NCBI GenBank assembly: GCA_038065235.1 | Contig: JBBTRK010000005.1 | Coordinates: 22,389 to 86,388 of the forward strand | DNA from: Patescibacteria group bacterium | GTDB taxonomy: Bacteria; Patescibacteriota; Patescibacteriia; PEXW01 | DNA length: 64,000 nucleotides | Direction of reading: 5' to 3' | Notes under the pieces: generated by a model | Databases searched by the model: none | The model's input: the letters and a program-made list of their open reading frames with translations, nothing else | Told to the model about the DNA's origin: nothing | Shown here: positions 3,517-54,096 of the stretch, piece by piece | How the letters are laid out: each line of letters opens with the position of its first letter | How positions within the stretch are numbered: position 1 is the first letter of the stretch | Translations under genes and position numbers: made by a program

Positions 3517-4143
3517 ATGCCAGATCAACCAAAAGATATTTTCCAAGAGGTCGAGCCCGCAGCAGATGCGCAACCGGTTCGCCGTGCAGTTCCGGCAGCC
3601 CCGGTTATCCCGTCGGTTGTACCAACCCCAGAAATTCGGGGTGTACAACCTGCCCGCTATGACTCGCAGCGCGTGGCAGGCGGGCCGCGACGTTCACGCA
3701 TGCCTTTTCTGGTCGGTGGGGCAGTCGTGCTGCTCATCGGCATTGTGGCAGTTGTGGTACTGGTGCGCCGACAAACCCCAGCACCTGTGGTCCAGAGTAA
3801 TGTGCAAAATAGCAATACAACAACGAATGCCGCAGCAGCCACGACGAACACCCAACCTGCGCCGGTAGTGGTTCAGCCAGAGGTTGTTGCGAACGATGCG
3901 GACCGCGATGGCCTGACCACCGATGAGGAGCAGAAGCTAGGAACCAAGGATACGCTGGCAGATACCGATGGTGACGGCTTGAGTGACTGGGACGAGGTGA
4001 AAGTGTACAAGACCAACCCGCTGAAGCCGGATACGGATGGCGATGGGAACGCCGATGGCGCTGAAGTAAAAAAAGGGTATAATCCAAATGGTTCTGGCCT
4101 GCTCCTAGATTTTGAGGCCGCCAAGCAGAAGCTCACCAAGTAA
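3517..4143 (+). CDS. Membrane-anchored protein with thrombospondin type-3-like Ca-binding repeats.
   Basis: Pro-rich N-terminus, one TM helix, then DxDxDG repeats (DADRDGLTTDEE, DTDGDGLSDWDE, DTDGDGNADGAE). Confidence 0.65.
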   Translation: MPDQPKDIFQEVEPAADAQPVRRAVPAAPVIPSVVPTPEIRGVQPARYDSQRVAGGPRRSRMPFLVGGAVVLLIGIVAVVVLVRRQTPAPVVQSNVQNSNTTTNAAAATTNTQPAPVVVQPEVVANDADRDGLTTDEEQKLGTKDTLADTDGDGLSDWDEVKVYKTNPLKPDTDGDGNADGAEVKKGYNPNGSGLLLDFEAAKQKLTK

Positions 4144-7422: not shown

Positions 7423-8625
7423 ATGGCCCGAAGCACTATGGAAATAAAGCCAGATATCGAAACCTTTGCGAAGATCAAAGTCGTCGGCGTGGGCGGTTCT
7501 GGTGGCTCGGCTGTAGACCGCATGATCACCTCGAAAATTCGCGGGGTGGAGTTTATTGTAATCAACACCGACGCACAGGCGCTGCACCACTCCAAAGCCC
7601 CGACCAAGATTCACATTGGCAAAACCGTCACACGTGGGCTTGGTGCGGGTATGGATCCCGAGCTTGGACGGAAAGCTGCGGAAGAGAGCCAGGATGAAAT
7701 TCATGAAGCATTGAAAGGCGCAGACATGGTCTTCATTACCTGTGGCCTCGGTGGCGGTACGGGTACGGGTGCGGCGCCAGTCGTTGCGGAAATCGCCAAA
7801 GACGTGGGTGCACTCACGGTAGCTGTCGTCACTAAGCCGTTCGCTTTCGAAGGTGCCCAGCGAAAGGGGATTGCCGACGGGGGTCTGGGCGACCTCGGCG
7901 ATCGCGTCGATACACTCATCACTATCCCGAATGACCGGTTGCTGCAGATCATCGACAAGAAGACTAGTCTCTTGGACGCGTTCGGCACGGTCGATGAGGT
8001 GCTTCGCCAAGGGGTGCAGGGGATTAGCGAACTCATCACTATTCCCGGGCTCATCAACGTCGATTTCGCGGACGTGAAATCCATCATGGCCGATGCCGGC
8101 TCCGCGCTCATGGGTATTGGCAAGGCGACCGGGGATAACCGTGCCGTGGATGCCGCCAAGGCCGCTATCGACAGCCCTCTCTTGGAACTCTCTATTGATG
8201 GCGCCAAGGGCATTCTTTTCACGGTGACGGGTGGTCCAGACCTTGGGATGTATGAGGTAAATGAAGCCGCTAGGGTTATTACTGCCTCGGTTGATCCAAA
8301 TGCCAAGGTTATTTTCGGCACGGTCATTGATGAGACTTTGAAAGGTGAGGTTCGCATTACCGTAATTGCCACTGGGTTTGGTAAAGGTCCACTGGCAACC
8401 CCTCGACCCCTGCCGAAGAAGATCACCCCCACCGGCTTCGATACCTATGAACCCGTGAAGGAGCCCGAAAGACGTCCCCAGCCCCGGCCAATCGCGTCAC
8501 AGCGCCCAGCCGCACCAGTGATGCCGCCAGCACGCCCAGCCGCAGCAGAGCCAAAACCGGTGATGCCGAAGAAGCCAGAAGATGACCTGGAAATTCCCGC
8601 CTTCATCCGGCGGAAGATGATGTGA
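7423..8625 (+). CDS. ftsZ: Cell division GTPase FtsZ.
   Basis: [13 protein letters not shown] and the tubulin signature [17 protein letters not shown]. Pro/Ala-rich C-terminal linker. Confidence 0.97.
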
Positions 8626-8732
8626 GAAGATCTCCACAGGTTTTTTTGGTGTCGGGATTGCGTTCCTAAAGCGACACCGGGATACCCCAGTAATCATGCG
8701 GCTCAACACGAGGCGCCGTTTTTAGGTTTAGG

Positions 8733-8786
8733 TTGACAACACTACATGTAGTGGTATACTACCCTCTAGTAACACTACATCTAGTA
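8733..8786 (+). promoter_or_regulatory. Sigma70-like promoter (TTGACA at 8733-8738, TATACT at 8755-8760) with NrdR box 1 (ACACTACATGTAGTG, 8739-8753) in the spacer and NrdR box 2 (ACACTACATCTAGTA, 8772-8786) 33 bp downstream.
   Basis: Two palindromes match the NrdR-box consensus (acaCwAtATaTwGtgt) in tandem, upstream of nrdR and the RNR gene. Confidence 0.75.
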
Positions 8787-9090
8787 TTGACTAGGGCGTT
8801 GAGCCTTAGCCTCCGCCAGAGGCGGAGGGGAGCGTGACCGCTTGTCACACGCCTCTTTCACAAAAGCAACACCACGTTTTGCTGTTCGCCTGCATTCGTA
8901 AGGTGTCCAGCCCGCCCGCCTCCGCCTAGTGCTCGGCATTGGCGGGCAGGCCCGCCGTTGCCTCCCGCACCAGTCCTGTCGCCCCCTAGGCGAGAGGTCA
9001 ACATCGTTGTACGATGGTGACCCCGCCCGCCACGCGTTGCCGCGAGGCATTGCGGGCAGGCTCAGCGGCTGCTGCTTTCTCGTCCACGCT

Positions 9091-9627
9091 ATGAAGTGCC
9101 CTGCCTGCCACAAACTTGATACTCGGGTCATGGATTCCCGGCTCATTGAGGATGGAATGGCAATTCGCCGACGCCGCGAGTGTGCCCGCTGTGATTTTCG
9201 CTTCTCGACCATCGAAGAGACGGAAATTCTGAACCTCACGGTCATCAAGCGGGATGGTCGGCACGAGCCATATAGTAGGGAGAAGATGGAGACAGGCCTC
9301 CGCCGCTCATTCCAGAAATTACCGATCACGCAGGATGAATTGAAACGTCTGGTTAACCACATTGAGCGGGATATCCAGATCACTGGTCGACAAGAGATAA
9401 AGAGCGCTGACATTGGGGACATCCTAATGAAGCACCTGAAGCGGGCGAATCACGTTGCGTACATTCGCTTCGCCTCGGTGTACCGGTCATTTAAAGACGT
9501 TGAGACCTTCCAGCGTGAACTCCACAGCCTGCTGAAGCCCGCCCGGCACCGGCCCGACACGCTGCGCGAGTCGAAGCGGGCGGGACGCCGTCTGGCGGAC
9601 GAGCCCGCCCGTCGAGCTAAGCGCTAA
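9091..9627 (+). CDS. nrdR: Transcriptional repressor NrdR (Zn ribbon + ATP cone).
   Basis: Starts MKCPACHK...ECARC (zinc ribbon), followed by an ATP-cone. The longer GTG-initiated ORF from 8929 is rejected because NrdR begins at the zinc ribbon. Confidence 0.88.
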   Translation: MKCPACHKLDTRVMDSRLIEDGMAIRRRRECARCDFRFSTIEETEILNLTVIKRDGRHEPYSREKMETGLRRSFQKLPITQDELKRLVNHIERDIQITGRQEIKSADIGDILMKHLKRANHVAYIRFASVYRSFKDVETFQRELHSLLKPARHRPDTLRESKRAGRRLADEPARRAKR

Positions 9628-9666
9628 ATTAATAAATTACCCTTCGCTCTTAAAGACTCTGCGACC

Positions 9667-12600
9667 ATGCCGCACGTCACCCTCCGCGATCCTGCTACCC
9701 AAACTGCCACGGGCAACTATCCCGCGCATGGTTTGCGTATTACGCGTCGTCATACAACCGTGGGGGTGGACCCGCTCGAGCAGCTGACTTATGAGAAGCG
9801 TTCCTCGGTCATCAAGAATCCGGACGGCCGCATCGTCTACGAGATCACCGACGTGGAAGTCCCCACCAGCTGGTCGCAGGTTGCCACAGATATTTTGGCG
9901 CAAAAGTACTTCCGCAAGGCGGGTGTGCCGGTGCTCGACGAGCAGGGGCAGCCGATGCTGGATGGACAGGGGAACGTTGTCACCGGCTCGGAGAAGAGCG
10001 CTAGGCAAGTCGTTCGGCGCATGACCATGTGCTGGCGCTGGTGGGGTGAGCAGTATGGCTACTTCGCCTCGCCCGAGGATGCGCAGGCGTACCAAGATGA
10101 AATGGCGTACTTCCTCATCCACCAGATGAGCGCGCCGAATTCCCCGCAGTGGTTCAACACCGGCCTGCACACGGCCTACGGCATCACTGGCCGACCGCAG
10201 GGGCACTACTACGTCGTCCCCGAAACTGGCGAAGTGGTGAAGTCCGAGGATGCCTACACCCACCCCCAGCCGCACGCGTGCTTCATCCAGAGTGTCTCGG
10301 ACGACCTGGTTGGTGAAGGTGGCATCTTTGACCTTATGACCCGCGAAGCGCGACTCTTCAAGTTTGGCTCTGGCACGGGCAGCAACTTCTCGAGCCTTCG
10401 TGGTCGGGGTGAAAAGCTCGGTGGCGGTGGGACGTCGTCGGGCATGATGTCGTTCCTGAACGTCTTCGACCGTGCCGCGGGCGCCATTAAGAGCGGCGGC
10501 ACCACGCGGCGGGCAGCCAAGATGGTCATTGTGAACGTCGACCATCCCGACGTGGAAGAGTTTATCAGCTGGAAGGTTAAGGAGGAGCAGAAGGTGGCAG
10601 ACCTCGTCACCGGCAGCAAACTTAACGCCAAATATCTGAACGCAATCATGACCACGGCCCATGCCGAAGGGGCCACCGCCCTCACCCAGTCACCCGCGCT
10701 CAAGGCGCTTGTGCGCAAAGCCGTCGCTCACGAGGTGCCGCTTAACTACATTGCCCGCGCACTGGACTTGGTTCGCCAAGGCAAGACGTCAATCGATTTC
10801 CACATCCTCGACACGCATTTCGAAGGCGACGCGTACAATACCGTTTCGGGCCAGAACAGCAACAACACCGTGCGCGTCACCAACGAGTACATGGACGCGG
10901 TGCGAGTGAACGCCCCATGGAACCTCACTGCGCGCGTCACTGGCGATGTCGTGAAGACCATCCCGGCGCGTGAGCTGTGGGATACAATTGGTTACGCCGC
11001 GTGGTCCTGCGCTGACCCAGGCTTGCAATTCGACACGACGATCAATGAGTGGCACACCTGCCCGGTGGACGGCCGCATCAATGGTTCGAACCCATGCAGC
11101 GAGTACATGTTCCTGGATGACACGGCCTGCAACCTCGCTTCTATGAACTTGGCCAAGTACCTCGACGCCGATACCGGCACCTTCGACGTGGATAGCTACC
11201 GTCACAGCATTCGGCTGTGGACCGTCACGCTCGAGCTCTCGGTGCTCATGGCACAGTTCCCAGGCAAGGAGATTGCGCGCCGCAGCTACGCCTACCGTAC
11301 ACTCGGCTTGGGGTACGCCAACCTCGGTACCGTGCTCATGACCATGGGCATTCCGTACGACTCTGACGAAGCCCGCGCCATTGCCGGCAGCCTCACCGCC
11401 ATTATGACCGGCGAGTCCTACGCCACCAGCGCCGAAGTGGCCAGCGTCGTCGGGGCATTCCCAGCCTACGAGCGGAACAAGCGCCACATGCTCCGTGTTA
11501 TCCGCAACCACCGTCGCGCCGCCTACAATGCACCCGCCGATGAGTACGAAGGCCTCTCCATCACCCCGCAGGGCATCAACCACAGTGCTGTCCCGCCCTA
11601 CCTGGGTGACGCCGCCAAGCTGGCCTGGGATCGAGCTATTACCCTGGGCGAGCAGCACGGTTTCCGGAACGCACAGACCACAGTTATTGCACCCACTGGC
11701 ACGATTGGCCTCATCATGGATTGTGACACCACCGGCATCGAGCCAGACTTCGCACTCGTGAAGTTCAAGAAGCTCGCTGGCGGGGGATTCTTCAAGATCG
11801 TGAACCAGTCCATGGACAAAGCCTTGCGCCATTTGGGTTACACCGAGCCGCAGGTGAGAGACATTGAGAATTTCGCCAAGGGTCACGGTACGCTCGTGGG
11901 TTGCCCTGCCATAAACCCGCAAGAGCTCCGTGAGAAAGGTTTCACCGACGCTGACCTAGCAAAGGTCGAGGCCAACCTGAAGACTGCCTTTGACCTCCGT
12001 TTCGCTTTCACCCCTTTCGCGCTCGGGGCCGAAGCACTGACGCGCGCTGGCCTCACCGACGTACAGGTTGCAGACCGTGAGCTTAACGTCCTGGGTGCGC
12101 TCGGCTTCACCGATAGGCAGGTCTCGGAAGCCAACGAGTACGTCTGTGGCACCATGACCATCGAAGGTGCTCCACACCTGAAGCCCGAGCACCTGCCGGT
12201 GTTTGACTGCGCCAACCGCTGTGGTGCCAAGGGGAAGCGCTTCATCGCCTACGACGCGCACCTGCAGATGATGGCGGCAGCCCAGCCATTCATTTCTGGC
12301 GCAATTTCCAAGACCATCAACATGCCTAACGAGGCCACGCTCGTCGACATCGAGCAGGCGTACCAGAAGAGCTGGAAGCACATGCTGAAGGCCGTGGCTC
12401 TCTACCGCGACGGCTCCAAGCTCTCCCAGCCGCTCAACACCATTGCCGGTCTGGATGACCTGGGTCAAGCCGAGACCACCGCGGAAGAGACTAACGAGCA
12501 GGTCACGCCCAAGCAGGTGAATGATGCTACGGCTGCGCAAGCTGCCGGTCAGGCCATCCGCCATGCCTTGCCGAACAAACGCCACGGCTTCGTGCAGAAG

Positions 12601-13179
12601 GCGTACGTCGGCGGGCACAAAGTCTACCTCCGCACCGGCGAGTACGATAACGGCCAGATCGGCGAGATCTTCGTGGACATGTACAAAGAGGGGACTGCCT
12701 ACCGCAGTCTACTCTCTATGTTCGCCATTTCTATTTCCAAAGGTTTGCAGTACGGCATTCCGCTAGAGGAGTACGTCGACACCTTCACCTACACGCGTTT
12801 CGAGCCGGCTGGCACGGTCCAGGGTCACGAGAACGTGAAGATGGCCACATCCATCCTAGACTACGTGTTTCGCGTGTTGGGCTTCGAGTACCTAGGCCGC
12901 ACAGACCTGGTGCACATTAAGCCCCAACTGAAAGTCGATGAGAAAGAACTCCATGTTCCGGCACCGATCCAGCAAGCGACGCTACCCATGAATGTCCAGA
13001 CGACCGCGCAGCGAGATGCCACGAAGAGCAACGTGAGCTTCGGCATGCAGGACAAGGACGAAGCGCGCCAGCAGGGCTTCACCGGCGACCAGTGCGTGGC
13101 CTGCGGGAGCATGAAGATGAAGCGCAACGGCACCTGCATCCTCTGCCTGGACTGCGGCGAGACAACGGGGTGTAGCTAG
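9667..13179 (+). CDS. nrdJ: Class II adenosylcobalamin-dependent ribonucleotide reductase (NrdJ-like, long form).
   Basis: Active-site region SNPCSEYMFLDDTACNLASMNL. C-terminal CxxC...CxxC zinc finger (CVACGS...CILCLDCG). ~1170 aa is typical of long NrdJ. Confidence 0.82.
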   Translation: MPHVTLRDPATQTATGNYPAHGLRITRRHTTVGVDPLEQLTYEKRSSVIKNPDGRIVYEITDVEVPTSWSQVATDILAQKYFRKAGVPVLDEQGQPMLDGQGNVVTGSEKSARQVVRRMTMCWRWWGEQYGYFASPEDAQAYQDEMAYFLIHQMSAPNSPQWFNTGLHTAYGITGRPQGHYYVVPETGEVVKSEDAYTHPQPHACFIQSVSDDLVGEGGIFDLMTREARLFKFGSGTGSNFSSLRGRGEKLGGGGTSSGMMSFLNVFDRAAGAIKSGGTTRRAAKMVIVNVDHPDVEEFISWKVKEEQKVADLVTGSKLNAKYLNAIMTTAHAEGATALTQSPALKALVRKAVAHEVPLNYIARALDLVRQGKTSIDFHILDTHFEGDAYNTVSGQNSNNTVRVTNEYMDAVRVNAPWNLTARVTGDVVKTIPARELWDTIGYAAWSCADPGLQFDTTINEWHTCPVDGRINGSNPCSEYMFLDDTACNLASMNLAKYLDADTGTFDVDSYRHSIRLWTVTLELSVLMAQFPGKEIARRSYAYRTLGLGYANLGTVLMTMGIPYDSDEARAIAGSLTAIMTGESYATSAEVASVVGAFPAYERNKRHMLRVIRNHRRAAYNAPADEYEGLSITPQGINHSAVPPYLGDAAKLAWDRAITLGEQHGFRNAQTTVIAPTGTIGLIMDCDTTGIEPDFALVKFKKLAGGGFFKIVNQSMDKALRHLGYTEPQVRDIENFAKGHGTLVGCPAINPQELREKGFTDADLAKVEANLKTAFDLRFAFTPFALGAEALTRAGLTDVQVADRELNVLGALGFTDRQVSEANEYVCGTMTIEGAPHLKPEHLPVFDCANRCGAKGKRFIAYDAHLQMMAAAQPFISGAISKTINMPNEATLVDIEQAYQKSWKHMLKAVALYRDGSKLSQPLNTIAGLDDLGQAETTAEETNEQVTPKQVNDATAAQAAGQAIRHALPNKRHGFVQKAYVGGHKVYLRTGEYDNGQIGEIFVDMYKEGTAYRSLLSMFAISISKGLQYGIPLEEYVDTFTYTRFEPAGTVQGHENVKMATSILDYVFRVLGFEYLGRTDLVHIKPQLKVDEKELHVPAPIQQATLPMNVQTTAQRDATKSNVSFGMQDKDEARQQGFTGDQCVACGSMKMKRNGTCILCLDCGETTGCS

Positions 13180-13297: not shown

Positions 13298-13660
13298 ATG
13301 ACTCGCCTCATCAACCGAAGCACGGAAAAAGCAAAGCGCCGGACGTTGCGAAATGCGATGCCAAAAGCGGAATATATCCTCTGGCAGCAGTTGCGTCGAA
13401 AGCAAATTGCAGGAGTGACGTTTCGCCGTCAGGTAAGTGTTGGGAAGTACGTCGTGGATTTCTACTGCTCCGCAAGGCGATTGGCAATTGAAGTAGATGG
13501 CGAAACACATATTGGAAAAGAAGCGGAGGCATATGACGCTGAGCGACAAAAATATCTAGAAGACCTAGGTATTCGCGTTATCCGTTTCTGGAATACTGAT
13601 GTGTATAAAAATTTGGCGGGTGTGATTGATGAGGTACTCCACGTTGTTAGAAAGATATGA
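13298..13660 (+). CDS. DUF559 endonuclease-domain protein (Vsr-like fold).
   Basis: YVVDFYC, LAIEVDGETH, RQKYLEDLGIRVIRFWNTDV. Start chosen at the internal ATG; ATG at 13274 is also possible. Confidence 0.7.
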   Translation: MTRLINRSTEKAKRRTLRNAMPKAEYILWQQLRRKQIAGVTFRRQVSVGKYVVDFYCSARRLAIEVDGETHIGKEAEAYDAERQKYLEDLGIRVIRFWNTDVYKNLAGVIDEVLHVVRKI

Positions 13661-14390: not shown

Positions 14391-14733
14391 CTCTGGTCTT
14401 GCGACGGCTTTATTGCGGTGGCCATAGGCAGTAGCTATTCGCTGGATTTTTCTAGGTCTAGGTGCAACTTTGAGATTGCATAGATAACCTCAAGGGCATT
14501 GAGTTCAGGGCGGTCTTCGGTGAGTTGATCAGTGTAGTCGATGGGGTGTTTCATAGAGTATGAAAAGTTAACCCAGGACTTTAGCATTGGTAACCCGCTA
14601 TGTCAACCAAAGAAAAAAGGCCCCGCAGGAGCCTTGCCAGGGGGGGAGGAAATCTGGCTCAGCATCCCAGAGCGGGGCCGAAGATCAAGACGAAAGATTG
14701 TATTTTTGTGTCGGTTTCCGTACTCTACATGGC

Positions 14734-15321
14734 ATGGTCAAAGCAGTCAAGCGTATAGCCCCAAAGAAGCTCCGTCCCTTCCCCCACGGCATCACCGTGG
14801 CGTACATTGGCGATGGCAAAGGCAAGACCACAGCTGCGGTTGGGGCAGCCACTCGAGCCGCTGGCTACGGCTGGAAGGTGCTCTTTTTGCAGTTTTACAA
14901 AAGTATCGATTGGCCATCCGGTGAACGCGAGGCACTGCGCAAGCTCGGCGTGGACGTCGAGGTACACGGCGCAGGGTTTGTTGGAATCCTCGGTGATCGG
15001 AAGCATCTGCGTGAACACCAGCAAGCTGCTCAACGTGCGTTGCGTGTAGCGTGGGCACACATCCTCTCGGGCAAGTACAAGCTCGTCGTGCTGGATGAAG
15101 TGATTTCTTGCCTCGAACAGAAACTCTTTCCGGTCAGCACGCTCGTACAGTTTTTTCAGAAGCGTCTGCAACACGCCAAAGCCAAGAACGTACACCTCGT
15201 CCTCACCGGTCATCAACAGTTCCCTGCAATCCTCAAGTACTGCGATGTGGTGACAGAGATGAATATGCTGAAGCATCCGTACTATAAAGGCTTCATTGCC
15301 GTGAAGGGGATTGATTTTTAA
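14734..15321 (+). CDS. cobO: Cob(I)alamin (corrinoid) adenosyltransferase, CobA/CobO/BtuR family.
   Basis: P-loop GDGKGKTTAAVGAATRAAGYG, KVLFLQFYK, and overall collinearity with CobO. The 5' extension to 14587 is judged non-coding. Confidence 0.85.
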   Translation: MVKAVKRIAPKKLRPFPHGITVAYIGDGKGKTTAAVGAATRAAGYGWKVLFLQFYKSIDWPSGEREALRKLGVDVEVHGAGFVGILGDRKHLREHQQAAQRALRVAWAHILSGKYKLVVLDEVISCLEQKLFPVSTLVQFFQKRLQHAKAKNVHLVLTGHQQFPAILKYCDVVTEMNMLKHPYYKGFIAVKGIDF

Positions 15322-17740: not shown

Positions 17741-19018
17741 ATGTCCGATACACCTATGACTCCTGCCCCTGCCCGCCATGCTTCGCAAGGCGAGGCAGGC
17801 GGGCCGAAACCTCAGCCACGCTACACGCAGTCGGCGTTGACCGTGGCGGTCATCCTTAGTCTTATCTTTGGTACCATTGGTGGGGCACTCGGCGGCGCGC
17901 TCGCCTCGGGGAATTTCGATTCGTGGTTCAACCGGACATTCCAGAAGACCTTTGTTGCCTCATCCACGAGTGGCAGCTCGACCACGTTGAAAGTCGAGGA
18001 GGAATCTGCAACCATTGACGTCGTAAAGAAGGTTCAGAAATCTGTCGTCAGTATTATTATCACTAAAGACTTAAGTAAAGTATATAACCAATCGGGAGGT
18101 TCGCCGTTCGATTTCTTTTTCGGTACGGGTCAGCAACAGCCGCAGCAAGGCACGAAAGAAATTGGGGGCGGTTCCGGGTTCATACTTTCGGCTGACGGGT
18201 ACATCATGACGAACAAGCACGTCGTTGACGACACCCAGGCTGACTACACCGTACTGACGAACGACGCGAAGAGTTACTCAGCGAAAGTTATTGCGAGCGA
18301 CCCGGTGAATGACCTGGCTGTGCTGAAGATCGAGTCGAAAGATTTGCCGGCAATTGAATTTGGCGACTCAGAGAACCTTCAAATAGGCCAGACCGTAATT
18401 GCCATTGGTAATGCGCTCGGTGAGTATCGAAACACCGTGACCAAAGGTGTCGTGTCGGGTCTCGCCCGGCGTATCACCGCTGGCGATGGGCAATCGTCTG
18501 AGACGTTAGAGAACGCCATTCAAACTGATGCTGCTATTAATCCTGGGAATTCTGGTGGTCCGCTGCTCAACCTGGCTGGTCAAGTCATTGGCGTCAACGT
18601 CGCGGTGAGCCAGCAGGGCCAGCTCATCGGCTTCGCTATCCCGGCGAACCAAGCGAACACGGTGTATGAAAGCGTGAGAAAGACTGGGAAAATTGTTCGA
18701 CCCTACCTGGGCGTGCGGTACATGCCCATAACAAAAGCGCTTAAGGAGCAGAATAAACTTTCCGTTGACTACGGCGTCCTTATCCAACGCGGGACGACTT
18801 CGGGCGAGCTAGCGATTATCCCGGGTGGCCCAGCCGATAAAGCCGGGCTGCAGGAGAACGATATTATTTTGGAATTGAACGGGGTGAAACTGGACACCGA
18901 ACATAGCTTGGCCGGTGAAATTCAAAAGCACGCCCCCGGCGACACTATTACCCTTAAAGTCTTGAGCAAGGGCAAGGAGAAGTCGGTTACGGCCACGCTT
19001 GCAGAGCTGAAGCCGTAA
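17741..19018 (+). CDS. htrA: HtrA/DegP-family serine protease with a C-terminal PDZ domain.
   Basis: Trypsin-like GNSGGPLLN and a catalytic-triad context. PDZ-like C-terminus. Confidence 0.85.
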   Translation: MSDTPMTPAPARHASQGEAGGPKPQPRYTQSALTVAVILSLIFGTIGGALGGALASGNFDSWFNRTFQKTFVASSTSGSSTTLKVEEESATIDVVKKVQKSVVSIIITKDLSKVYNQSGGSPFDFFFGTGQQQPQQGTKEIGGGSGFILSADGYIMTNKHVVDDTQADYTVLTNDAKSYSAKVIASDPVNDLAVLKIESKDLPAIEFGDSENLQIGQTVIAIGNALGEYRNTVTKGVVSGLARRITAGDGQSSETLENAIQTDAAINPGNSGGPLLNLAGQVIGVNVAVSQQGQLIGFAIPANQANTVYESVRKTGKIVRPYLGVRYMPITKALKEQNKLSVDYGVLIQRGTTSGELAIIPGGPADKAGLQENDIILELNGVKLDTEHSLAGEIQKHAPGDTITLKVLSKGKEKSVTATLAELKP

Positions 19019-31753: not shown

Positions 31754-31829
31754 TGGCGGACCCGAAGGGAATCGAACCCTCGATCTTCTCCGTGACAGGG
31801 AGACGTGTTAACCGCTACACTACGGGTCC
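31754..31829 (-). tRNA. tRNA-Asp (GUC), CCA-encoded.
   Basis: Reverse complement GGACCCGTAGTGTAGCGGTTAACACGTCTCCCTGTCACGGAGAAGATCGAGGGTTCGATTCCCTTCGGGTCCGCCA. Anticodon loop CTGTCAC. Confidence 0.93.
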
Positions 31830-35622: not shown

Positions 35623-36026
35623 TGGTGGAGATGAGGGGTCTTGCGCCCCTGTCTAGAATGCGGCGGGCAGGTGGTCTACAGGTGTAGGGCGTTCACGGGT
35701 GTTTCGATTGTGCCGCATGGAGCGCCCAAGCTCGGCAGAATCTAGTGGAGGTGATTTTCGGTTGCGCTGTTACCACACCCACGCAACCTACGCCTGAATT
35801 ATGACACTCGCAATTCCCGCGCCAGGCCGCGGGGCGAATGGGTTATCGGTTTTTAAGCGAGAACCGGAGCAAAGCTGGGCATTGCGAACGCGTTAGCGAA
35901 CGCAGTCTTCACTTTGCTGACAATGTTATTGGCAGTTGTCAATTTGTCCAGCAGTTTCACGCCGTGCCGAACGAGGGCGACCCGCACACTTACCGTAATG
36001 CAATCTATCAACTAATGGACATCCCC
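35623..36026 (-). ncRNA. ssrA: tmRNA (ssrA).
   Basis: Lies immediately downstream of smpB. The 5' GGGGAUG pairs with 3' CAUCUCC-A-CCA to give a 7-bp acceptor stem with a G3-U70 wobble (the AlaRS identity element). A T-arm-like GGGG-CGCAAGA-CCCC sits before the 3' end. An internal tag frame reads ...ANAFAMPSFAPVLA with TAA at 35853-35855. Confidence 0.6.
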
Positions 36027-48164: not shown

Positions 48165-48655
48165 ATGACCCTATTGCCCGCGGAGACGATTAGGGTCAGA
48201 ATGTTATTTTTTTGGGTTATGTAAAAACCGCTCGGGGATTGAGCGGTTTTGAGTAATACGGTATTTGGGTTACTTTCACATTAGCCGGCGAAAGCTTGGA
48301 TGGCCGCAGCGCAGGCTGCAATAATGAGCATAATGGTTACGGAAATTGCAGAGCAAACAAAAAGGATCAGGGTTACGTGCAAGAGTTTTGCCCGATAGTA
48401 CTTCCCAGCGCTTTCGGCAGTAAAAAGTAAGGCCCAGCTTATCACGACTCCAGCGCAGCTAATGGGGATTAAGAACAGCCACGCCCACCAATAAGCAGAT
48501 ATAAAATTTATCAATGTTGCCTCCGTTGGTTTTCTCAAACCTACACCCCCAGCTTGAGTAGTCAATAGCTTGCACGTACAATACAGGTATGAACCTCATG
48601 TCATCTTTGAATAGTGAACAAAAACAGGCGGTTACGCATGCGTCCGGCCCGCTGT
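48165..48655. repeat. Left copy of a 491-bp perfect direct repeat.
   Basis: Identical to 53606-54096 (atgaccctattgcccgcggagacg ... gcgtccggcccgct). Confidence 0.9.
48281..48514 (-). CDS. Small 2-TM membrane protein, left duplicate copy. Probable TTG start after GGAGG; the ORF track extends it to 48565.
   Basis: MINFISAYWWAWLFLIPIS... A highly hydrophobic ~77 aa. Confidence 0.5.
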   Translation of the reverse strand: MINFISAYWWAWLFLIPISCAGVVISWALLFTAESAGKYYRAKLLHVTLILFVCSAISVTIMLIIAACAAAIQAFAG

Positions 48656-53605: not shown

Positions 53606-54096
53606 TATGACCCTATTGCCCGCGGAGACGATTAGGGTCAGAATGTTATTTTTTTGGGTTATGTAAAAACCGCTCGGGGATTGAGCGGTTTTGAGTAATA
53701 CGGTATTTGGGTTACTTTCACATTAGCCGGCGAAAGCTTGGATGGCCGCAGCGCAGGCTGCAATAATGAGCATAATGGTTACGGAAATTGCAGAGCAAAC
53801 AAAAAGGATCAGGGTTACGTGCAAGAGTTTTGCCCGATAGTACTTCCCAGCGCTTTCGGCAGTAAAAAGTAAGGCCCAGCTTATCACGACTCCAGCGCAG
53901 CTAATGGGGATTAAGAACAGCCACGCCCACCAATAAGCAGATATAAAATTTATCAATGTTGCCTCCGTTGGTTTTCTCAAACCTACACCCCCAGCTTGAG
54001 TAGTCAATAGCTTGCACGTACAATACAGGTATGAACCTCATGTCATCTTTGAATAGTGAACAAAAACAGGCGGTTACGCATGCGTCCGGCCCGCTC
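53606..54096. repeat. Right copy of the 491-bp direct repeat. It carries the genuine 5' end of the helicase gene.
   Basis: See the left copy. Confidence 0.9.
53723..53956 (-). CDS. Small 2-TM membrane protein, right duplicate copy.
   Basis: Identical to the 48281..48514 copy. Confidence 0.5.
   Translation of the reverse strand: MINFISAYWWAWLFLIPISCAGVVISWALLFTAESAGKYYRAKLLHVTLILFVCSAISVTIMLIIAACAAAIQAFAG

What the first reader, a model, noticed from the sequence alone, without database searches (positions are those of the whole stretch)
8733..9090. NrdR boxes embedded in a consensus sigma70 promoter, followed by an unusually long (~300 nt) GC-rich structured leader before nrdR-nrdJ
Box 1 (ACACTACATGTAGTG) occupies the 16-nt spacer between TTGACA and TATACT. 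Box 2 lies 33 bp downstream. This is a textbook repressor geometry. Transcription would start about 320 nt before the nrdR ATG. That leader is extremely GC-rich with perfect hairpins (cctccgcc-aga-ggcggagg) and a direct repeat ggcattg(g)cgggcaggc (8938 / 9046), which suggests an additional RNA-level control layer. I looked for a B12 box and did not find one.
Basis: partly seen in the sequence, partly recalled or inferred. Interest (0 to 1): 0.5.

Follow-up and report, generated by a model that had tools for sequence, protein, structure and literature searches.

The report
NrdR-repressed promoter with conserved structured leader
The only ribonucleotide-reductase operon of this tiny candidate-phyla-radiation (Patescibacteria) bacterium has an ordinary NrdR-repressed promoter, followed by a roughly 320-base untranslated RNA that is conserved in a narrow group of relatives, matches no described RNA family, and has an unknown function.

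Summary
TTGACA(8733)-16 nt-TATACT(8760) scores 11/12 with a TG extension. NrdR box 1 fills the spacer and box 2 lies 33 bp downstream. nrdR starts at 9091, so the leader is about 323 nt long.

The window comes from a Patescibacteria (CPR) genome with the gene order ftsA-ftsZ-nrdR-nrdJ. In 13 distinct relatives the leader keeps the same architecture:
- three adjacent hairpins (P1-P3);
- a nearly invariant single-stranded CUCUUUCACAAAAGCAACACCACG tract;
- a variable insert;
- hairpins P5 and P6, the latter carrying a conserved UGUACGAU;
- a variable GC hairpin;
- a U/C-rich start region with no Shine-Dalgarno sequence.

P1 and P2 covary clearly. P5 and P6 covary moderately. G·U pairs fix the + strand as the RNA strand. 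The leader is not coding. No Rfam family matches, cobalamin included, and I found no paper describing it.

The "perfect hairpin" is the variable P2. The upstream copy of the direct repeat sits in a roughly 40-nt insertion found only in this window.

My reading is a new, clade-restricted cis-regulatory leader RNA layered on standard NrdR repression. Its effector is unknown. The live rivals are a boxA-like Nus site, a passive stability element, and an embedded weak second promoter. Interest is moderate.

The parts
8733..8760 (+). Sigma-70-type promoter: -35 TTGACA, 16-nt spacer, extended -10 TGgTATACT
   Evidence: 11/12, TG present; the only site in 8400-9800. A promoter of this type, identical or nearly so, is present in the relatives.
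8739..8754 (.). NrdR box 1 (ACACTACATGTAGTGG), filling the promoter spacer
   Evidence: C4, A6, A8, T9, T11 and G13 are all present, judged against the consensus in PMC13584703.
8772..8787 (.). NrdR box 2 (ACACTACATCTAGTAT), about +5 to +20 of the transcript; 17-bp linker to box 1
   Evidence: The 23-nt core spacer recurs in the relatives with a recognisable box pair.
8791..8809 (+). Leader hairpin P1: CUAGGGC-GUUGA-GCCUUAG
   Evidence: Seven pairs, 100% of cells paired in 13 sequences, three pairs with compensatory changes (A-U to G-C, G-C to A-U).
8810..8828 (+). Leader hairpin P2: CCUCCGCC-AGA-GGCGGAGG. Its sequence and length vary between relatives but the pairing is kept.
   Evidence: Five of the seven modelled pairs show changes on both sides.
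8829..8855 (+). Leader hairpin P3: GGAGCGUG / CACGCCUC with an 11-nt loop containing the conserved GCUUGU
   Evidence: 92% of cells paired, mostly invariant, one compensatory U-A to C-G. A G·U pair in 12 of 13 sequences fixes the + strand.
8853..8876 (+). Conserved single-stranded C/A-rich tract CUCUUUCACAAAAGCAACACCACG (boxA-like core CUCUUUCACAA)
   Evidence: nearly invariant columns. It is unique in the window. It is unpaired in the predicted folds.
8881..8911 (+). Variable hairpin P4 (GCUG...CAGC)
   Evidence: Read from the alignments. It is absent in L005 and replaced by other hairpins elsewhere. Pairing was not tested statistically.
8917..8956 (+). Insertion of about 40 nt found only in this window, flanked by duplicated GCCCGCC.
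   Evidence: a gap in all other sequences.
8953..8966 (+). Conserved CGCCGUUGCCUCCC segment between P4 and P5
   Evidence: It is missing in L005, so it is not essential.
8975..8997 (+). Hairpin P5: CCUGUCGCC-CCCUA-GGCGAGAGG. The 3' strand and loop (UUGGCGA in relatives) are conserved.
   Evidence: Three pairs show compensatory changes; 75% of cells paired.
8996..9022 (+). Hairpin P6: GGUCA-A-CAUCG-UUGUA-CGAUG-G-UGACC, with conserved UGUACGAU
   Evidence: Four outer pairs are compensatory; the inner four pairs are invariant.
8987..9015 (+). Candidate weak internal promoter: TAGGCG (TTGGCG in most relatives), 17 nt, TACGAT. It overlaps P5 and P6.
   Evidence: My reading, compared with other promoters of this genome. 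It scores 8/12 or less, below the scan threshold. Unverified.
9023..9060 (+). Variable GC hairpin P7 (CCGCCCGC...GCGGGCAGG), preceded by the conserved CCCGCC. It holds the downstream copy of the direct repeat (9046-9061).
   Evidence: It is short in L005, L006 and L031 and missing in L036.
9062..9090 (+). U/C-rich region before the start codon, with no Shine-Dalgarno sequence
   Evidence: This is the same character as in all relatives.
9091..9627 (+). nrdR (178 aa; Zn ribbon plus ATP-cone)
9667..13179 (+). nrdJ (class II, B12-dependent ribonucleotide reductase, 1170 aa, C-terminal TSCPD domain)

Best explanation
This is the autoregulated control region of the nrdR-nrdJ operon of a Patescibacteria bacterium. 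It has two layers.

**Layer 1 (sequence shown, mechanism from established knowledge of NrdR).** A near-consensus sigma-70 promoter carries NrdR box 1 in its spacer and box 2 at about +5 to +20. NrdR bound to the box pair would occlude RNA polymerase. An ftsZ terminator tail directly upstream insulates the operon from ftsAZ.

**Layer 2 (structure shown, function inferred).** Transcripts that do start carry a leader of about 323 nt. The leader is a clade-specific, conserved, structured RNA built as follows:
- three abutting hairpins (P1, P2, P3);
- a nearly invariant unpaired C/A-rich tract;
- a variable insert;
- hairpins P5 and P6;
- a variable GC hairpin;
- an unstructured pyrimidine-rich start region with no Shine-Dalgarno sequence.

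I commit to the reading that this leader is a cis-acting regulatory RNA, that is, a riboswitch-like sensor of a metabolite or a protein. On this reading the conserved 5' domain and the single-stranded tract bind the effector. That binding decides whether polymerase and ribosome reach the nrdR start, by controlling elongation, Rho access or start-site accessibility.

Confidence by step:
- The leader is a selected, structured, + strand, non-coding RNA: about 0.85.
- It senses something and regulates: about 0.5.
- The effector is a small molecule: about 0.3.
For: **Promoter, boxes and gene identities.**
-, with PMC13584703.

**Conservation.**
- The same architecture is seen upstream of nrdR in 13 distinct sequences from genomes and metagenomes.
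- Weaker versions exist in L024, L025, L039, L004 and L003.
- The gene order is ftsA-ftsZ-nrdR-nrdJ wherever neighbouring genes were recorded.

**Covariation.**
- 5' domain: 94% of cells paired and 9 pairs changed on both sides. No shuffle of 500 reached the observed values on four of the five measures (1 of 500 on the fifth). All slid-register controls scored far lower.
- 3' domain: 78% paired and 7 pairs changed on both sides. No shuffle of 500 reached the covariation score.

**Selection on the conserved blocks.**
- P2, P4 and P7 have turned over completely while the conserved blocks have not.

**Strand.**
- G·U pairs would be C·A on the other strand. The P3 G·U pair is present in 12 of 13 sequences.

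**Not coding.**
- The distance from the conserved motif to the ATG is 0, 1 or 2 modulo 3 across relatives, and 1-nt indels lie inside the conserved blocks.

**Folding.**
- z = -3.7, -2.1 and -2.0.

**No known family.**
-. No paper was found.

**Genome context.**
- Many genes here look leaderless or short-leadered, and only 6 of 37 have a Shine-Dalgarno-like sequence. A 323-nt leader is therefore exceptional.
- Riboswitches are known upstream of nrd genes: B12, and 2'-deoxyguanosine (the latter from my own knowledge).
Against: - No effector, expression platform or terminator was identified. No intrinsic terminator lies in the leader of the window, L027 or L006.
- Leader pairing with the translation start region is no better than in dinucleotide shuffles.
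- Predicted accessibility of the start region is unremarkable.
- A row of hairpins without a closing multi-stem junction is less typical of metabolite aptamers than of protein-binding leaders.
- The sample is small and closely related: 13 sequences, with NrdR about 78-100% identical. The shuffle controls therefore overstate significance.
- P3 and the inner part of P6 are almost invariant, so they say little about pairing.
- L005 lacks P4 and the CGUUG segment, and L036 lacks P7. Large parts are dispensable.
- The 5' domains of L024 and L039 do not fold better than shuffles.
- The transcription start is not mapped.
Confidence: 0.5

Rival explanations
1. Nus-factor (boxA/boxB-type) leader. The invariant tract after hairpin P3 is a boxA that recruits NusB/NusE (S10), NusA and NusG. 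The modified polymerase then resists Rho while crossing about 300 nt of untranslated, C-rich RNA. Alternatively, as at E. coli suhB, the complex represses the downstream gene.
For: - CUCUUUCACAA (8853-8863) matches the gamma-proteobacterial boxA consensus GYTCTTTAANA at 9 of 11 positions. Its CUCUUU-ACAA core is that of E. coli rrn boxA (consensus from PMC5725501).
- It is the most conserved single-stranded segment and directly follows a hairpin, as boxA follows boxB in rrn leaders.
- It is unique in the 64 kb.
- The leader has negative GC skew, meaning it is C-rich, which is rut-like.
- boxA elements outside rRNA operons are documented (PMC5725501, PMC7665894).
- The boxA-like tract is present in the long leaders, while L007, L008, L009 and L041, which have shorter leaders, lack it.
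Against: - The position equivalent to G2, which is critical for NusB binding (PMC3177189), is C in the family members read. The G lies one base too far 5'.
- By my estimate, a match with two or fewer mismatches to an 11-mer is expected by chance in roughly 15-25% of 300-nt leaders.
- In one search, 10 of 100 shuffles of the window gave at least one hit.
- The first three bases lie in the base of P3.
- This lineage's own rRNA-leader boxA could not be retrieved for comparison.
- The presence of rho and nusB in this genome was not checked.
Confidence: 0.15
2. Passive structural leader. The hairpins only stabilise or process the mRNA, or space the promoter from the gene. They protect against 5'-end-dependent RNases or provide a processing site. 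Nothing is sensed, and NrdR is the only regulator.
For: - No expression platform, terminator or start-site sequestration was found.
- The architecture is a row of hairpins.
- Large parts are dispensable in some relatives.
- The long 5' UTR of P. aeruginosa nrdAB lowers mRNA level and stability, and no specific regulatory element was identified in it (PMC12528414).
Against: - Stability elements rarely need about 24 invariant unpaired nucleotides.
- They also rarely need invariant stem sequences (P1, P3) and loop sequences (GCUUGU, UGUACGAU) while neighbouring hairpins drift freely.
- P1 starts about 24 nt from the 5' end, not at it.
- These are streamlined genomes of about 1 Mb in which many genes have almost no leader.
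Confidence: 0.2
3. Embedded second promoter. The conserved UUGGCG and UACGAU are the -35 and -10 of a weak internal promoter, giving a leader of about 70 nt in this window and shorter in relatives such as L005, L006, L031 and L036. Part of the 3'-domain conservation is then at the DNA level, and the long leader belongs only to the NrdR-controlled distal transcript.
For: - TTGGCG-17/18 nt-TA[CG][CG]AT keeps its spacing in 12 relatives. Variation in the second hexamer falls only on positions 3 and 4 (TACGAT, TACCAT, TAGGAT), as expected for a -10 element.
- Other likely promoters in this genome are of the same TTGnnn-17-TAnnnT type.
Against: - It scores 8/12 at best and is not reported by the scan.
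- In this window and in L001 the -35 is TAGGCG.
- The spacer covaries with the bases downstream of the -10 (outer P6 pairs). A promoter does not require that.
- In L024, L033 and L039 a hairpin is kept in a different register around the same motif.
- A constitutive inner promoter would bypass the NrdR boxes.
Confidence: 0.12
4. The leader is coding (an N-terminal extension of NrdR or a leader peptide), or its palindromes are DNA operators for another transcription factor, or it is a divergent cobalamin riboswitch.
For: - Gene callers extend NrdR into the leader: ORF 8929-9627 in the window and P0003 at 247 aa.
- A uORF at 9014-9094 ends in ATGA on the nrdR start.
- P1 is a perfect 7-bp inverted repeat.
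- NrdJ needs AdoCbl.
Against: - The reading frame is not conserved, and 1-nt indels lie in the conserved blocks.
- The uORF AUG is AUA in L002, L005, L006 and L031.
- P2 keeps its pairing through complete sequence turnover, and G·U pairs are strand-specific. Both point to RNA rather than a protein operator.
- There is no cobalamin hit or any other Rfam hit at E up to 10.
Confidence: 0.03

Closest known systems
NrdR-box operators of nrd promoters, e.g. Streptomyces coelicolor nrdRJ and E. coli nrdAB/nrdDG/nrdHIEF
   Same: Two 16-bp partially palindromic boxes with C4, A6, A8, T9, T11 and G13 overlap the promoter of an RNR operon. The operon itself encodes NrdR (nrdR-nrdJ, as in Streptomyces).
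   Different: The linker is 17 bp, at the edge of the usual 15-16 bp, and this holds across the relatives with a recognisable box pair. The boxes sit about 320 nt from the start codon rather than close to it.
Riboswitches upstream of ribonucleotide reductase genes (cobalamin riboswitch on nrdAB-type operons; 2'-deoxyguanosine riboswitches)
   Same: A conserved, structured 5' leader lies in front of an RNR operon.
   Different: There is no sequence or structure match to those or any other Rfam family. The architecture is a row of hairpins rather than a junction-centred aptamer. No ligand or expression platform was identified.
rrn-type boxB-boxA antitermination leaders and non-rRNA boxA elements (E. 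coli suhB, Salmonella CRISPR leaders)
   Same: A short invariant single-stranded YUCUUU-ACAA tract lies just 3' of a hairpin in a long untranslated transcript.
   Different: The critical G2 position is not matched. No comparison with this lineage's own rRNA boxA was possible. No boxC-like GU-rich element is present.
Long 5' UTR of Pseudomonas aeruginosa nrdAB (PMC12528414)
   Same: It is a long 5' UTR on an NrdR-controlled RNR operon. It lowers transcript level and stability, and no specific element was identified in it.
   Different: There is no sequence relationship. The organism, RNR class and leader are all different. The leader here shows covariation-supported hairpins.

Membership tests
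NrdR operator (NrdR regulon promoter) | Two 16-bp boxes carrying the conserved C4, A6, A8, T9, T11 and G13 | tested here: met
   Box 1 at 8739-8754 and box 2 at 8772-8787 carry all six positions. They match the regular expression of PMC13584703.
NrdR operator (NrdR regulon promoter) | Linker of 15-16 bp (14-17 or 24-27 accepted in surveys) | tested here: met
   17 bp (23-nt core spacer), at the edge of the accepted range. The same value is found in nearly all relatives, including L007 and L008.
NrdR operator (NrdR regulon promoter) | Located in the promoter of a ribonucleotide reductase operon, in a genome that encodes NrdR (Zn ribbon plus ATP-cone) | tested here: met
   The boxes overlap the only promoter-like site upstream of nrdR-nrdJ. 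Pfam PF22811 plus PF03477 for NrdR; PF08471 plus PF02867 for NrdJ.
NrdR operator (NrdR regulon promoter) | NrdR binds the site and represses transcription | not testable with these tools
   Needs EMSA, MST or a reporter assay.
Sigma-70 promoter | -35 and -10 hexamers at 16-18 nt spacing, and a mapped transcription start | tested here: inconclusive
   The sequence criterion is met (11/12, TG extension) and conserved. The transcription start is not mapped.
Cobalamin (B12) riboswitch | Match to the Rfam cobalamin covariance models, including the B12 box | tested here: not met
   No hit at E up to 10 in 8500-9800, and none at E up to 1 in eight orthologous loci.
Any described RNA family (Rfam 15, 4227 models) | Covariance-model match | tested here: not met
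   Only chance-level hits in the leader regions (a Mnt IRES at E = 9.8 in the window; a miRNA at E = 0.37 in L027). The window's only hits above threshold are a tmRNA and a tRNA elsewhere.
Riboswitch (generic) | Conserved aptamer fold supported by covariation | tested here: met
   P1 and P2 are strongly supported; P5 and P6 moderately. Caveat: 11-13 related sequences, with alignments fitted to the model.
Riboswitch (generic) | Expression platform: terminator/antiterminator, or sequestration of the start site | tested here: inconclusive
   No terminator found. Pairing to the start region is not above shuffles. Accessibility is unremarkable.
Riboswitch (generic) | Direct, selective ligand binding | not testable with these tools
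   Needs in-line probing or ITC.
boxA / Nus-factor binding site | Single-stranded match to the boxA consensus, including critical G2, C5 and U6 | tested here: not met
   9 of 11 to GYTCTTTAANA. C5 and U6 are matched. G2 is C in the family members read.
boxA / Nus-factor binding site | The same motif in the organism's own rRNA operon leader, and NusB/NusE binding | not testable with these tools
   No rRNA operon lies in the window.

The most novel reading that the evidence does not exclude
The leader is a new riboswitch class, or a new protein-responsive leader, specific to a Patescibacteria lineage. It would gate the cell's only ribonucleotide reductase in response to a signal that NrdR cannot read. 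Candidate signals are salvaged cobalamin/AdoCbl or host-derived (deoxy)nucleosides. It would be one of the few regulatory RNAs known from these uncultured, genome-reduced episymbionts.
Probability: 0.27. Interest if true: 0.72.

Novelty: new member of a known kind. Interest (0 to 1): 0.45.

Why it matters
Patescibacteria (CPR) have genomes of about 1 Mb, almost no biosynthesis, few regulators and, in this genome, mostly tiny leaders. They depend on salvaged nucleotides and cobalamin. RNR is therefore the choke point for DNA synthesis.

A selected 220-330-nt structured RNA in front of nrdR-nrdJ suggests that these cells add a second control layer to NrdR at exactly this point.

If the effector can be identified, it would show what such episymbionts monitor to decide on DNA replication. 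It would also add a regulatory RNA family from a part of the tree where hardly any are known.

If the leader proves to be only a stability element or a boxA site, the finding is a modest annotation point. It would still correct the gene calls that extend NrdR into the leader.

Tried and rejected
1. **Known RNA families.** Rfam at permissive thresholds on the window leader and on eight orthologous loci gave nothing. Resemblances I recalled to ykkC (ACUAGGG...) and ZTP (GGGnCGUGAC ... CCGCCUG) are not backed by any model hit.
2. **Coding or leader peptide.** Rejected by frame and indel analysis. The uORF 9014-9094, whose TGA overlaps the nrdR ATG, loses its AUG in L002, L005, L006 and L031.
3. 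**Start-site sequestration.** GCGGGCAGG (P7 3' strand, and the repeat copy) is perfectly complementary to codons 3-6 of nrdR. MFE folds pair them in the window, L002, L023 and L037. However, leader-to-start-region duplex energies are not better than dinucleotide shuffles in any of 17 leaders. Rejected as a conserved mechanism.
4. **Long-range pairing of box-2 RNA (CACUACAU) with AUGAAGUG.** It appears in the window MFE fold. It is not kept in L002, L021 or L027. Rejected.
5. **Pseudoknots.** I tested these by eye against substitutions: CA-rich tract with UGGUG of P6, GCAAC with GUUGC or GUUGU, and the P1 loop with CAAC. No covariation was seen. Rejected.
6. **Intrinsic attenuator.** No terminator-like site in the leaders. 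Only weak 3-4-bp hairpins precede the U/C tract.
7. **Dispersed repeat or mobile element.** The leader model hits the window only once. The GGCATTGCGGGCAGGC-like matches elsewhere in the window include a pair at 3649 and 17768 that is a shared in-frame peptide motif, not an RNA repeat.
8. **Wider distribution.**
   - A DNA-pattern scan of JGI metagenomes gave one true hit (L021) and ten chance hits.
   - Viral contigs gave none.
   - A Kerfeldbacteria relative with 72% NrdR identity has a different gene order and a short leader.
9. **Recurrent YUUG in the loops of P1, P3, P5 and P6.** Noted as a possible protein-binding signature but not tested statistically.
Full report
**1. What is in the sequence**

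- TTGACA (8733-8738) and TATACT (8755-8760) are 16 nt apart, preceded by TG. They score 11/12 and form the only promoter-like site in 8400-9800, against 0.6 expected.
- The spacer is NrdR box 1, ACACTACATGTAGTGG (8739-8754).
- Box 2, ACACTACATCTAGTAT (8772-8787), follows 33 bp later.
- Both boxes carry the six positions that a 2026 mutational study names as conserved (C4, A6, A8, T9, T11, G13).
- They fit that paper's search expression with a 23-nt core spacer, which is a 17-bp linker. That is the upper edge of the 14-17 bp class the authors counted (PMC13584703).
- The nrdR ATG is at 9091, not 9092.
- Pfam confirms NrdR (Zn ribbon plus ATP-cone) and a class II B12-dependent NrdJ at 9667-13179. 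ftsA and ftsZ lie upstream.
- With a start near 8767/8768, the leader is about 323 nt and box 2 lies at about +5 to +20.
- The leader is 63% GC, against 54% for the window. It is rich rather than extreme.
- It folds better than its shuffles, z = -3.74.

**2. Where it comes from and who shares it**

- NrdR is 100% identical to an NCBI protein from a "Patescibacteria group bacterium" MAG.
- Its closest relatives are Patescibacteria, Parcubacteria and Kerfeldbacteria MAGs.
- I collected the upstream regions from GTDB genomes, from one JGI metagenome contig found with a DNA pattern taken from the leader (the other ten hits were chance), and from contigs encoding close NrdR homologues.
- Wherever neighbours were recorded, the order is ftsA-ftsZ-nrdR-nrdJ.
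- A promoter of this type, with a box pair at the same spacing, is present in the relatives examined. A few are imperfect: L024 has TTGCTT as its -35 and an off-register box 2.
- In L027 a clear intrinsic terminator sits immediately upstream of the -35. Its weaker equivalent in the window is the GCGGC...GCCG-TTTTT at about 8698-8724. The operon is therefore insulated from ftsAZ, and this is its own promoter.

**3. The leader is a conserved, structured, non-coding RNA**

Alignments show blocks of near-identity separated by segments that have turned over completely.
- **P1.** Hairpin CUAGGGC-GUUGA-GCCYUAG (window 8791-8809).
- **P2.** It abuts P1 directly (8810-8828). Every relative forms a GC-rich hairpin here, but with unrelated sequence and length.
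- **P3.** It abuts P2 directly. GGAGCGUG pairs with CACGCYUC (8829-8855), and the loop contains the conserved GCUUGU.
- **Single-stranded tract.** CUCUUUCACAAAAGCAACACCACG (8853-8876) is nearly invariant and unpaired.
- **P4.** A variable hairpin (8881-8911).
- **CGCCGUUGCCUCC.** A conserved segment. L005 lacks both P4 and this segment.
- **P5.** At 8975-8997, with the conserved UUGGCGA.
- **P6.** At 8996-9022, with the conserved UGUACGAU.
- **CCCGCC.** A conserved short motif after P6.
- **P7.** A variable GC hairpin (9023-9060). It is short in L005, L006 and L031 and missing in L036.
- **Start region.** A U/C-rich stretch with no Shine-Dalgarno sequence, then the AUG.

A covariance model of the 5' domain finds 13 strong matches, all at the expected place. 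It finds only one match in the 64-kb window. Weak matches fall at the right place in L004, L003, L024 and L025.

Pair counts on the model alignment of the 5' domain:
- 94% of cells are paired.
- 9 of 22 pairs changed on both sides.
- No shuffle of 500 reached the observed values on four of the five measures (1 of 500 on the fifth).
- All slid registers scored far lower.
- P1 and P2 carry most of the compensatory changes. P3 is largely invariant.

Pair counts for the 3' domain:
- 78% of cells are paired.
- 7 pairs changed on both sides.
- No shuffle of 500 reached the covariation score. The two type-count measures are not exceptional.
- Support is moderate and concentrated in P5 and the outer half of P6.

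These alignments are fitted to the models and the sequences are related, so the shuffle figures are not probabilities.

Three further points support an RNA on the + strand:
- G·U pairs (one in P3 is present in 12 of 13 sequences) would be C·A on the minus strand.
- The leader is not coding. The distance from the conserved 5' block to the ATG is 0, 1 or 2 modulo 3 among relatives, and single-base indels lie inside conserved blocks.
- A palindromic DNA operator would not keep pairing through total sequence turnover, as P2 does.

**4.

- The perfect hairpin is P2. It is real, but it is the least sequence-conserved helix.
- The upstream copy of the direct repeat (8935-8951) lies in a roughly 40-nt insertion (8917-8956) flanked by duplicated GCCCGCC. 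The insertion is found only in this window.
- The downstream copy (9046-9061) is the 3' strand of the variable P7.
- The repeat is therefore a local duplication, not part of the conserved element.

**5. Is it a known RNA?**

- No Rfam 15 family matches the window leader up to E = 10.
- None matches eight orthologous loci up to E = 1.
- Full-text searches for NrdR/nrdJ with riboswitch or leader, and for CPR structured RNAs, found nothing describing it. Two large Breaker-laboratory surveys do not mention nrd genes.
- The nearest literature analogue is the long nrdAB 5' UTR of P. aeruginosa. It lowers mRNA level and stability, and no element was identified in it (PMC12528414).

**6. How might it work?**

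I tested several concrete mechanisms.

*Attenuation.* No terminator-like site lies in the leaders of the window, L027 or L006.

*Start-site sequestration.*
- GCGGGCAGG is perfectly complementary to nrdR codons 3-6, and MFE folds pair them in several relatives.
- However, leader-to-start-region duplexes are no stronger than for dinucleotide shuffles in any of 17 leaders.
- Predicted accessibility of the start is unremarkable.
- I reject it as a conserved mechanism.

*Nus factors.*
- The invariant tract contains CUCUUUCACAA, which matches the boxA consensus GYTCTTTAANA at 9 of 11 positions. It sits just 3' of a hairpin and is unique in the window.
- boxA elements outside rRNA operons are established.
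- But the G2 equivalent, critical for NusB, is C in the family members read.
- A match of this quality is not rare by chance. I could not retrieve this lineage's rRNA leader for comparison.
- This remains a live but minority hypothesis.

*Second promoter.*
- UUGGCG and UACGAU are spaced 17-18 nt apart in 12 relatives. Variation in the second hexamer falls only on positions 3 and 4.
- Other promoters here are of the TTGnnn-17-TAnnnT type.
- Yet the match is 8/12 or less, the -35 is TAGGCG in this window, and the spacer covaries with bases downstream of the -10.
- A weak embedded promoter cannot be excluded.

*Context.* Many genes in this window have a -10-like hexamer 6-8 nt before the ATG, and only 6 of 37 have a Shine-Dalgarno-like sequence. 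A 323-nt leader is highly unusual for this genome, which argues for function.

**7. Verdict**

- Layer 1, the NrdR operator in a consensus promoter, is a textbook case and already known in kind.
- Layer 2 is a previously undescribed, clade-restricted, structured leader RNA. It is restricted to relatives with NrdR of about 78% identity or more. A Kerfeldbacteria relative at 72% has a different gene order and a short leader.
- I commit to a cis-regulatory sensor RNA as the most likely function. My confidence that it regulates is about 0.5, and that the effector is a small molecule about 0.3.
- The rivals are a passive stability element (0.2), a Nus/boxA leader (0.15) and an embedded promoter (0.12).
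- Interest is moderate. It is a solid new RNA-motif candidate in an under-explored lineage, with a small family and no mechanism yet.

Noticed in passing
window 8630-8638 (ATCTCCACA); equivalents in L001, L002, L005-L009, L024, L033, L039: A DnaA-box-like motif (T/C)TATCCACAGG lies just after the ftsZ stop codon, about 95 bp upstream of the nrdR -35. It matches the consensus perfectly (TTATCCACA) in L009 and has two mismatches in the window. It is conserved even in relatives that lack the long leader. DnaA control of nrd genes is known from E. coli.
   Followed up: partly
window 8648-8678: A conserved hairpin, GGUGUCG...CGACACC, lies between the DnaA-box-like motif and the nrdR promoter. It is present with variations in most relatives (GTGTCGG...GCGACAC). 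Its function is unknown.
   Followed up: no
window about 8698-8732; L027 1563-1594: The T-rich tract directly upstream of the -35 is the tail of an ftsZ intrinsic terminator. The terminator is clear in L027 (7-bp stem plus TTTT) and weaker in the window. It may double as an UP-like element.
   Followed up: partly
window 9014-9094: A 26-codon uORF starts at the AUG inside UGUACGAUGG. Its TGA overlaps the nrdR ATG (ATGA). The AUG is AUA in L002, L005, L006 and L031, and the frame differs in L001, so it is not conserved.
   Followed up: yes
window 8929-9627; P0003 / L023 2001-2744: Gene callers extend NrdR N-terminally into the GC-rich leader, which has few stop codons (232-aa ORF here; 247-aa protein in an ENA record). 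Conversely, several relatives have NrdR called about 13 codons short (L027, L028, L031, L037). These are annotation artefacts caused by the leader.
   Followed up: partly
window, e.g. 37248 (argS), 54031, 16657, 14734: Many genes have a -10-like TAnnnT hexamer 6-8 nt before the ATG, often with TTGnnn 17 nt upstream. This suggests leaderless mRNAs. Only 6 of 37 long ORFs have a Shine-Dalgarno-like sequence, and ftsA, ftsZ, nrdR and nrdJ have none.
   Followed up: partly
window 14587-15318: A BtuR/CobO-type ATP:corrinoid adenosyltransferase lies 1.4 kb downstream of nrdJ. It would convert salvaged cobalamin into the AdoCbl that NrdJ needs.
   Followed up: no
window 13298-13657: A DUF559 / restriction-endonuclease-like small ORF lies immediately after nrdJ. 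It has a TATACT hexamer 6 nt before its ATG.
   Followed up: no
window 48165-48596 and 53607-54038: Two identical segments (300 nt and 80 nt, both 100% identical) lie 5.4 kb apart. They include a promoter-like TTGAGT-17-TACAAT and a gene start. Further diverged copies lie nearby (48038 and 50521; 48127 and 53194). This is a local duplication of gene 5' regions.
   Followed up: no
window 3649-3687 and 17768-17806: A 39-nt GC-rich repeat (85% identical) lies in frame near the N-termini of two unrelated proteins (PARxxSQxxAGGP). It accounts for some of the matches in the window that resemble the leader's GCGGGCAGG motif.
   Followed up: partly
window 35623-36026 (-) and 31757-31829 (-): A tmRNA and a tRNA are the only Rfam matches above gathering score in the 64 kb. 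There is no rRNA operon in the window.
   Followed up: no
L041 2340-2520: In a Kerfeldbacteria genome (NrdR 72% identical), nrdR lies after ndk, a methyltransferase gene and a NUDIX gene. Its intergenic region is 134 nt. nrdJ does not follow it. The box-pair expression found no NrdR boxes there.
   Followed up: partly
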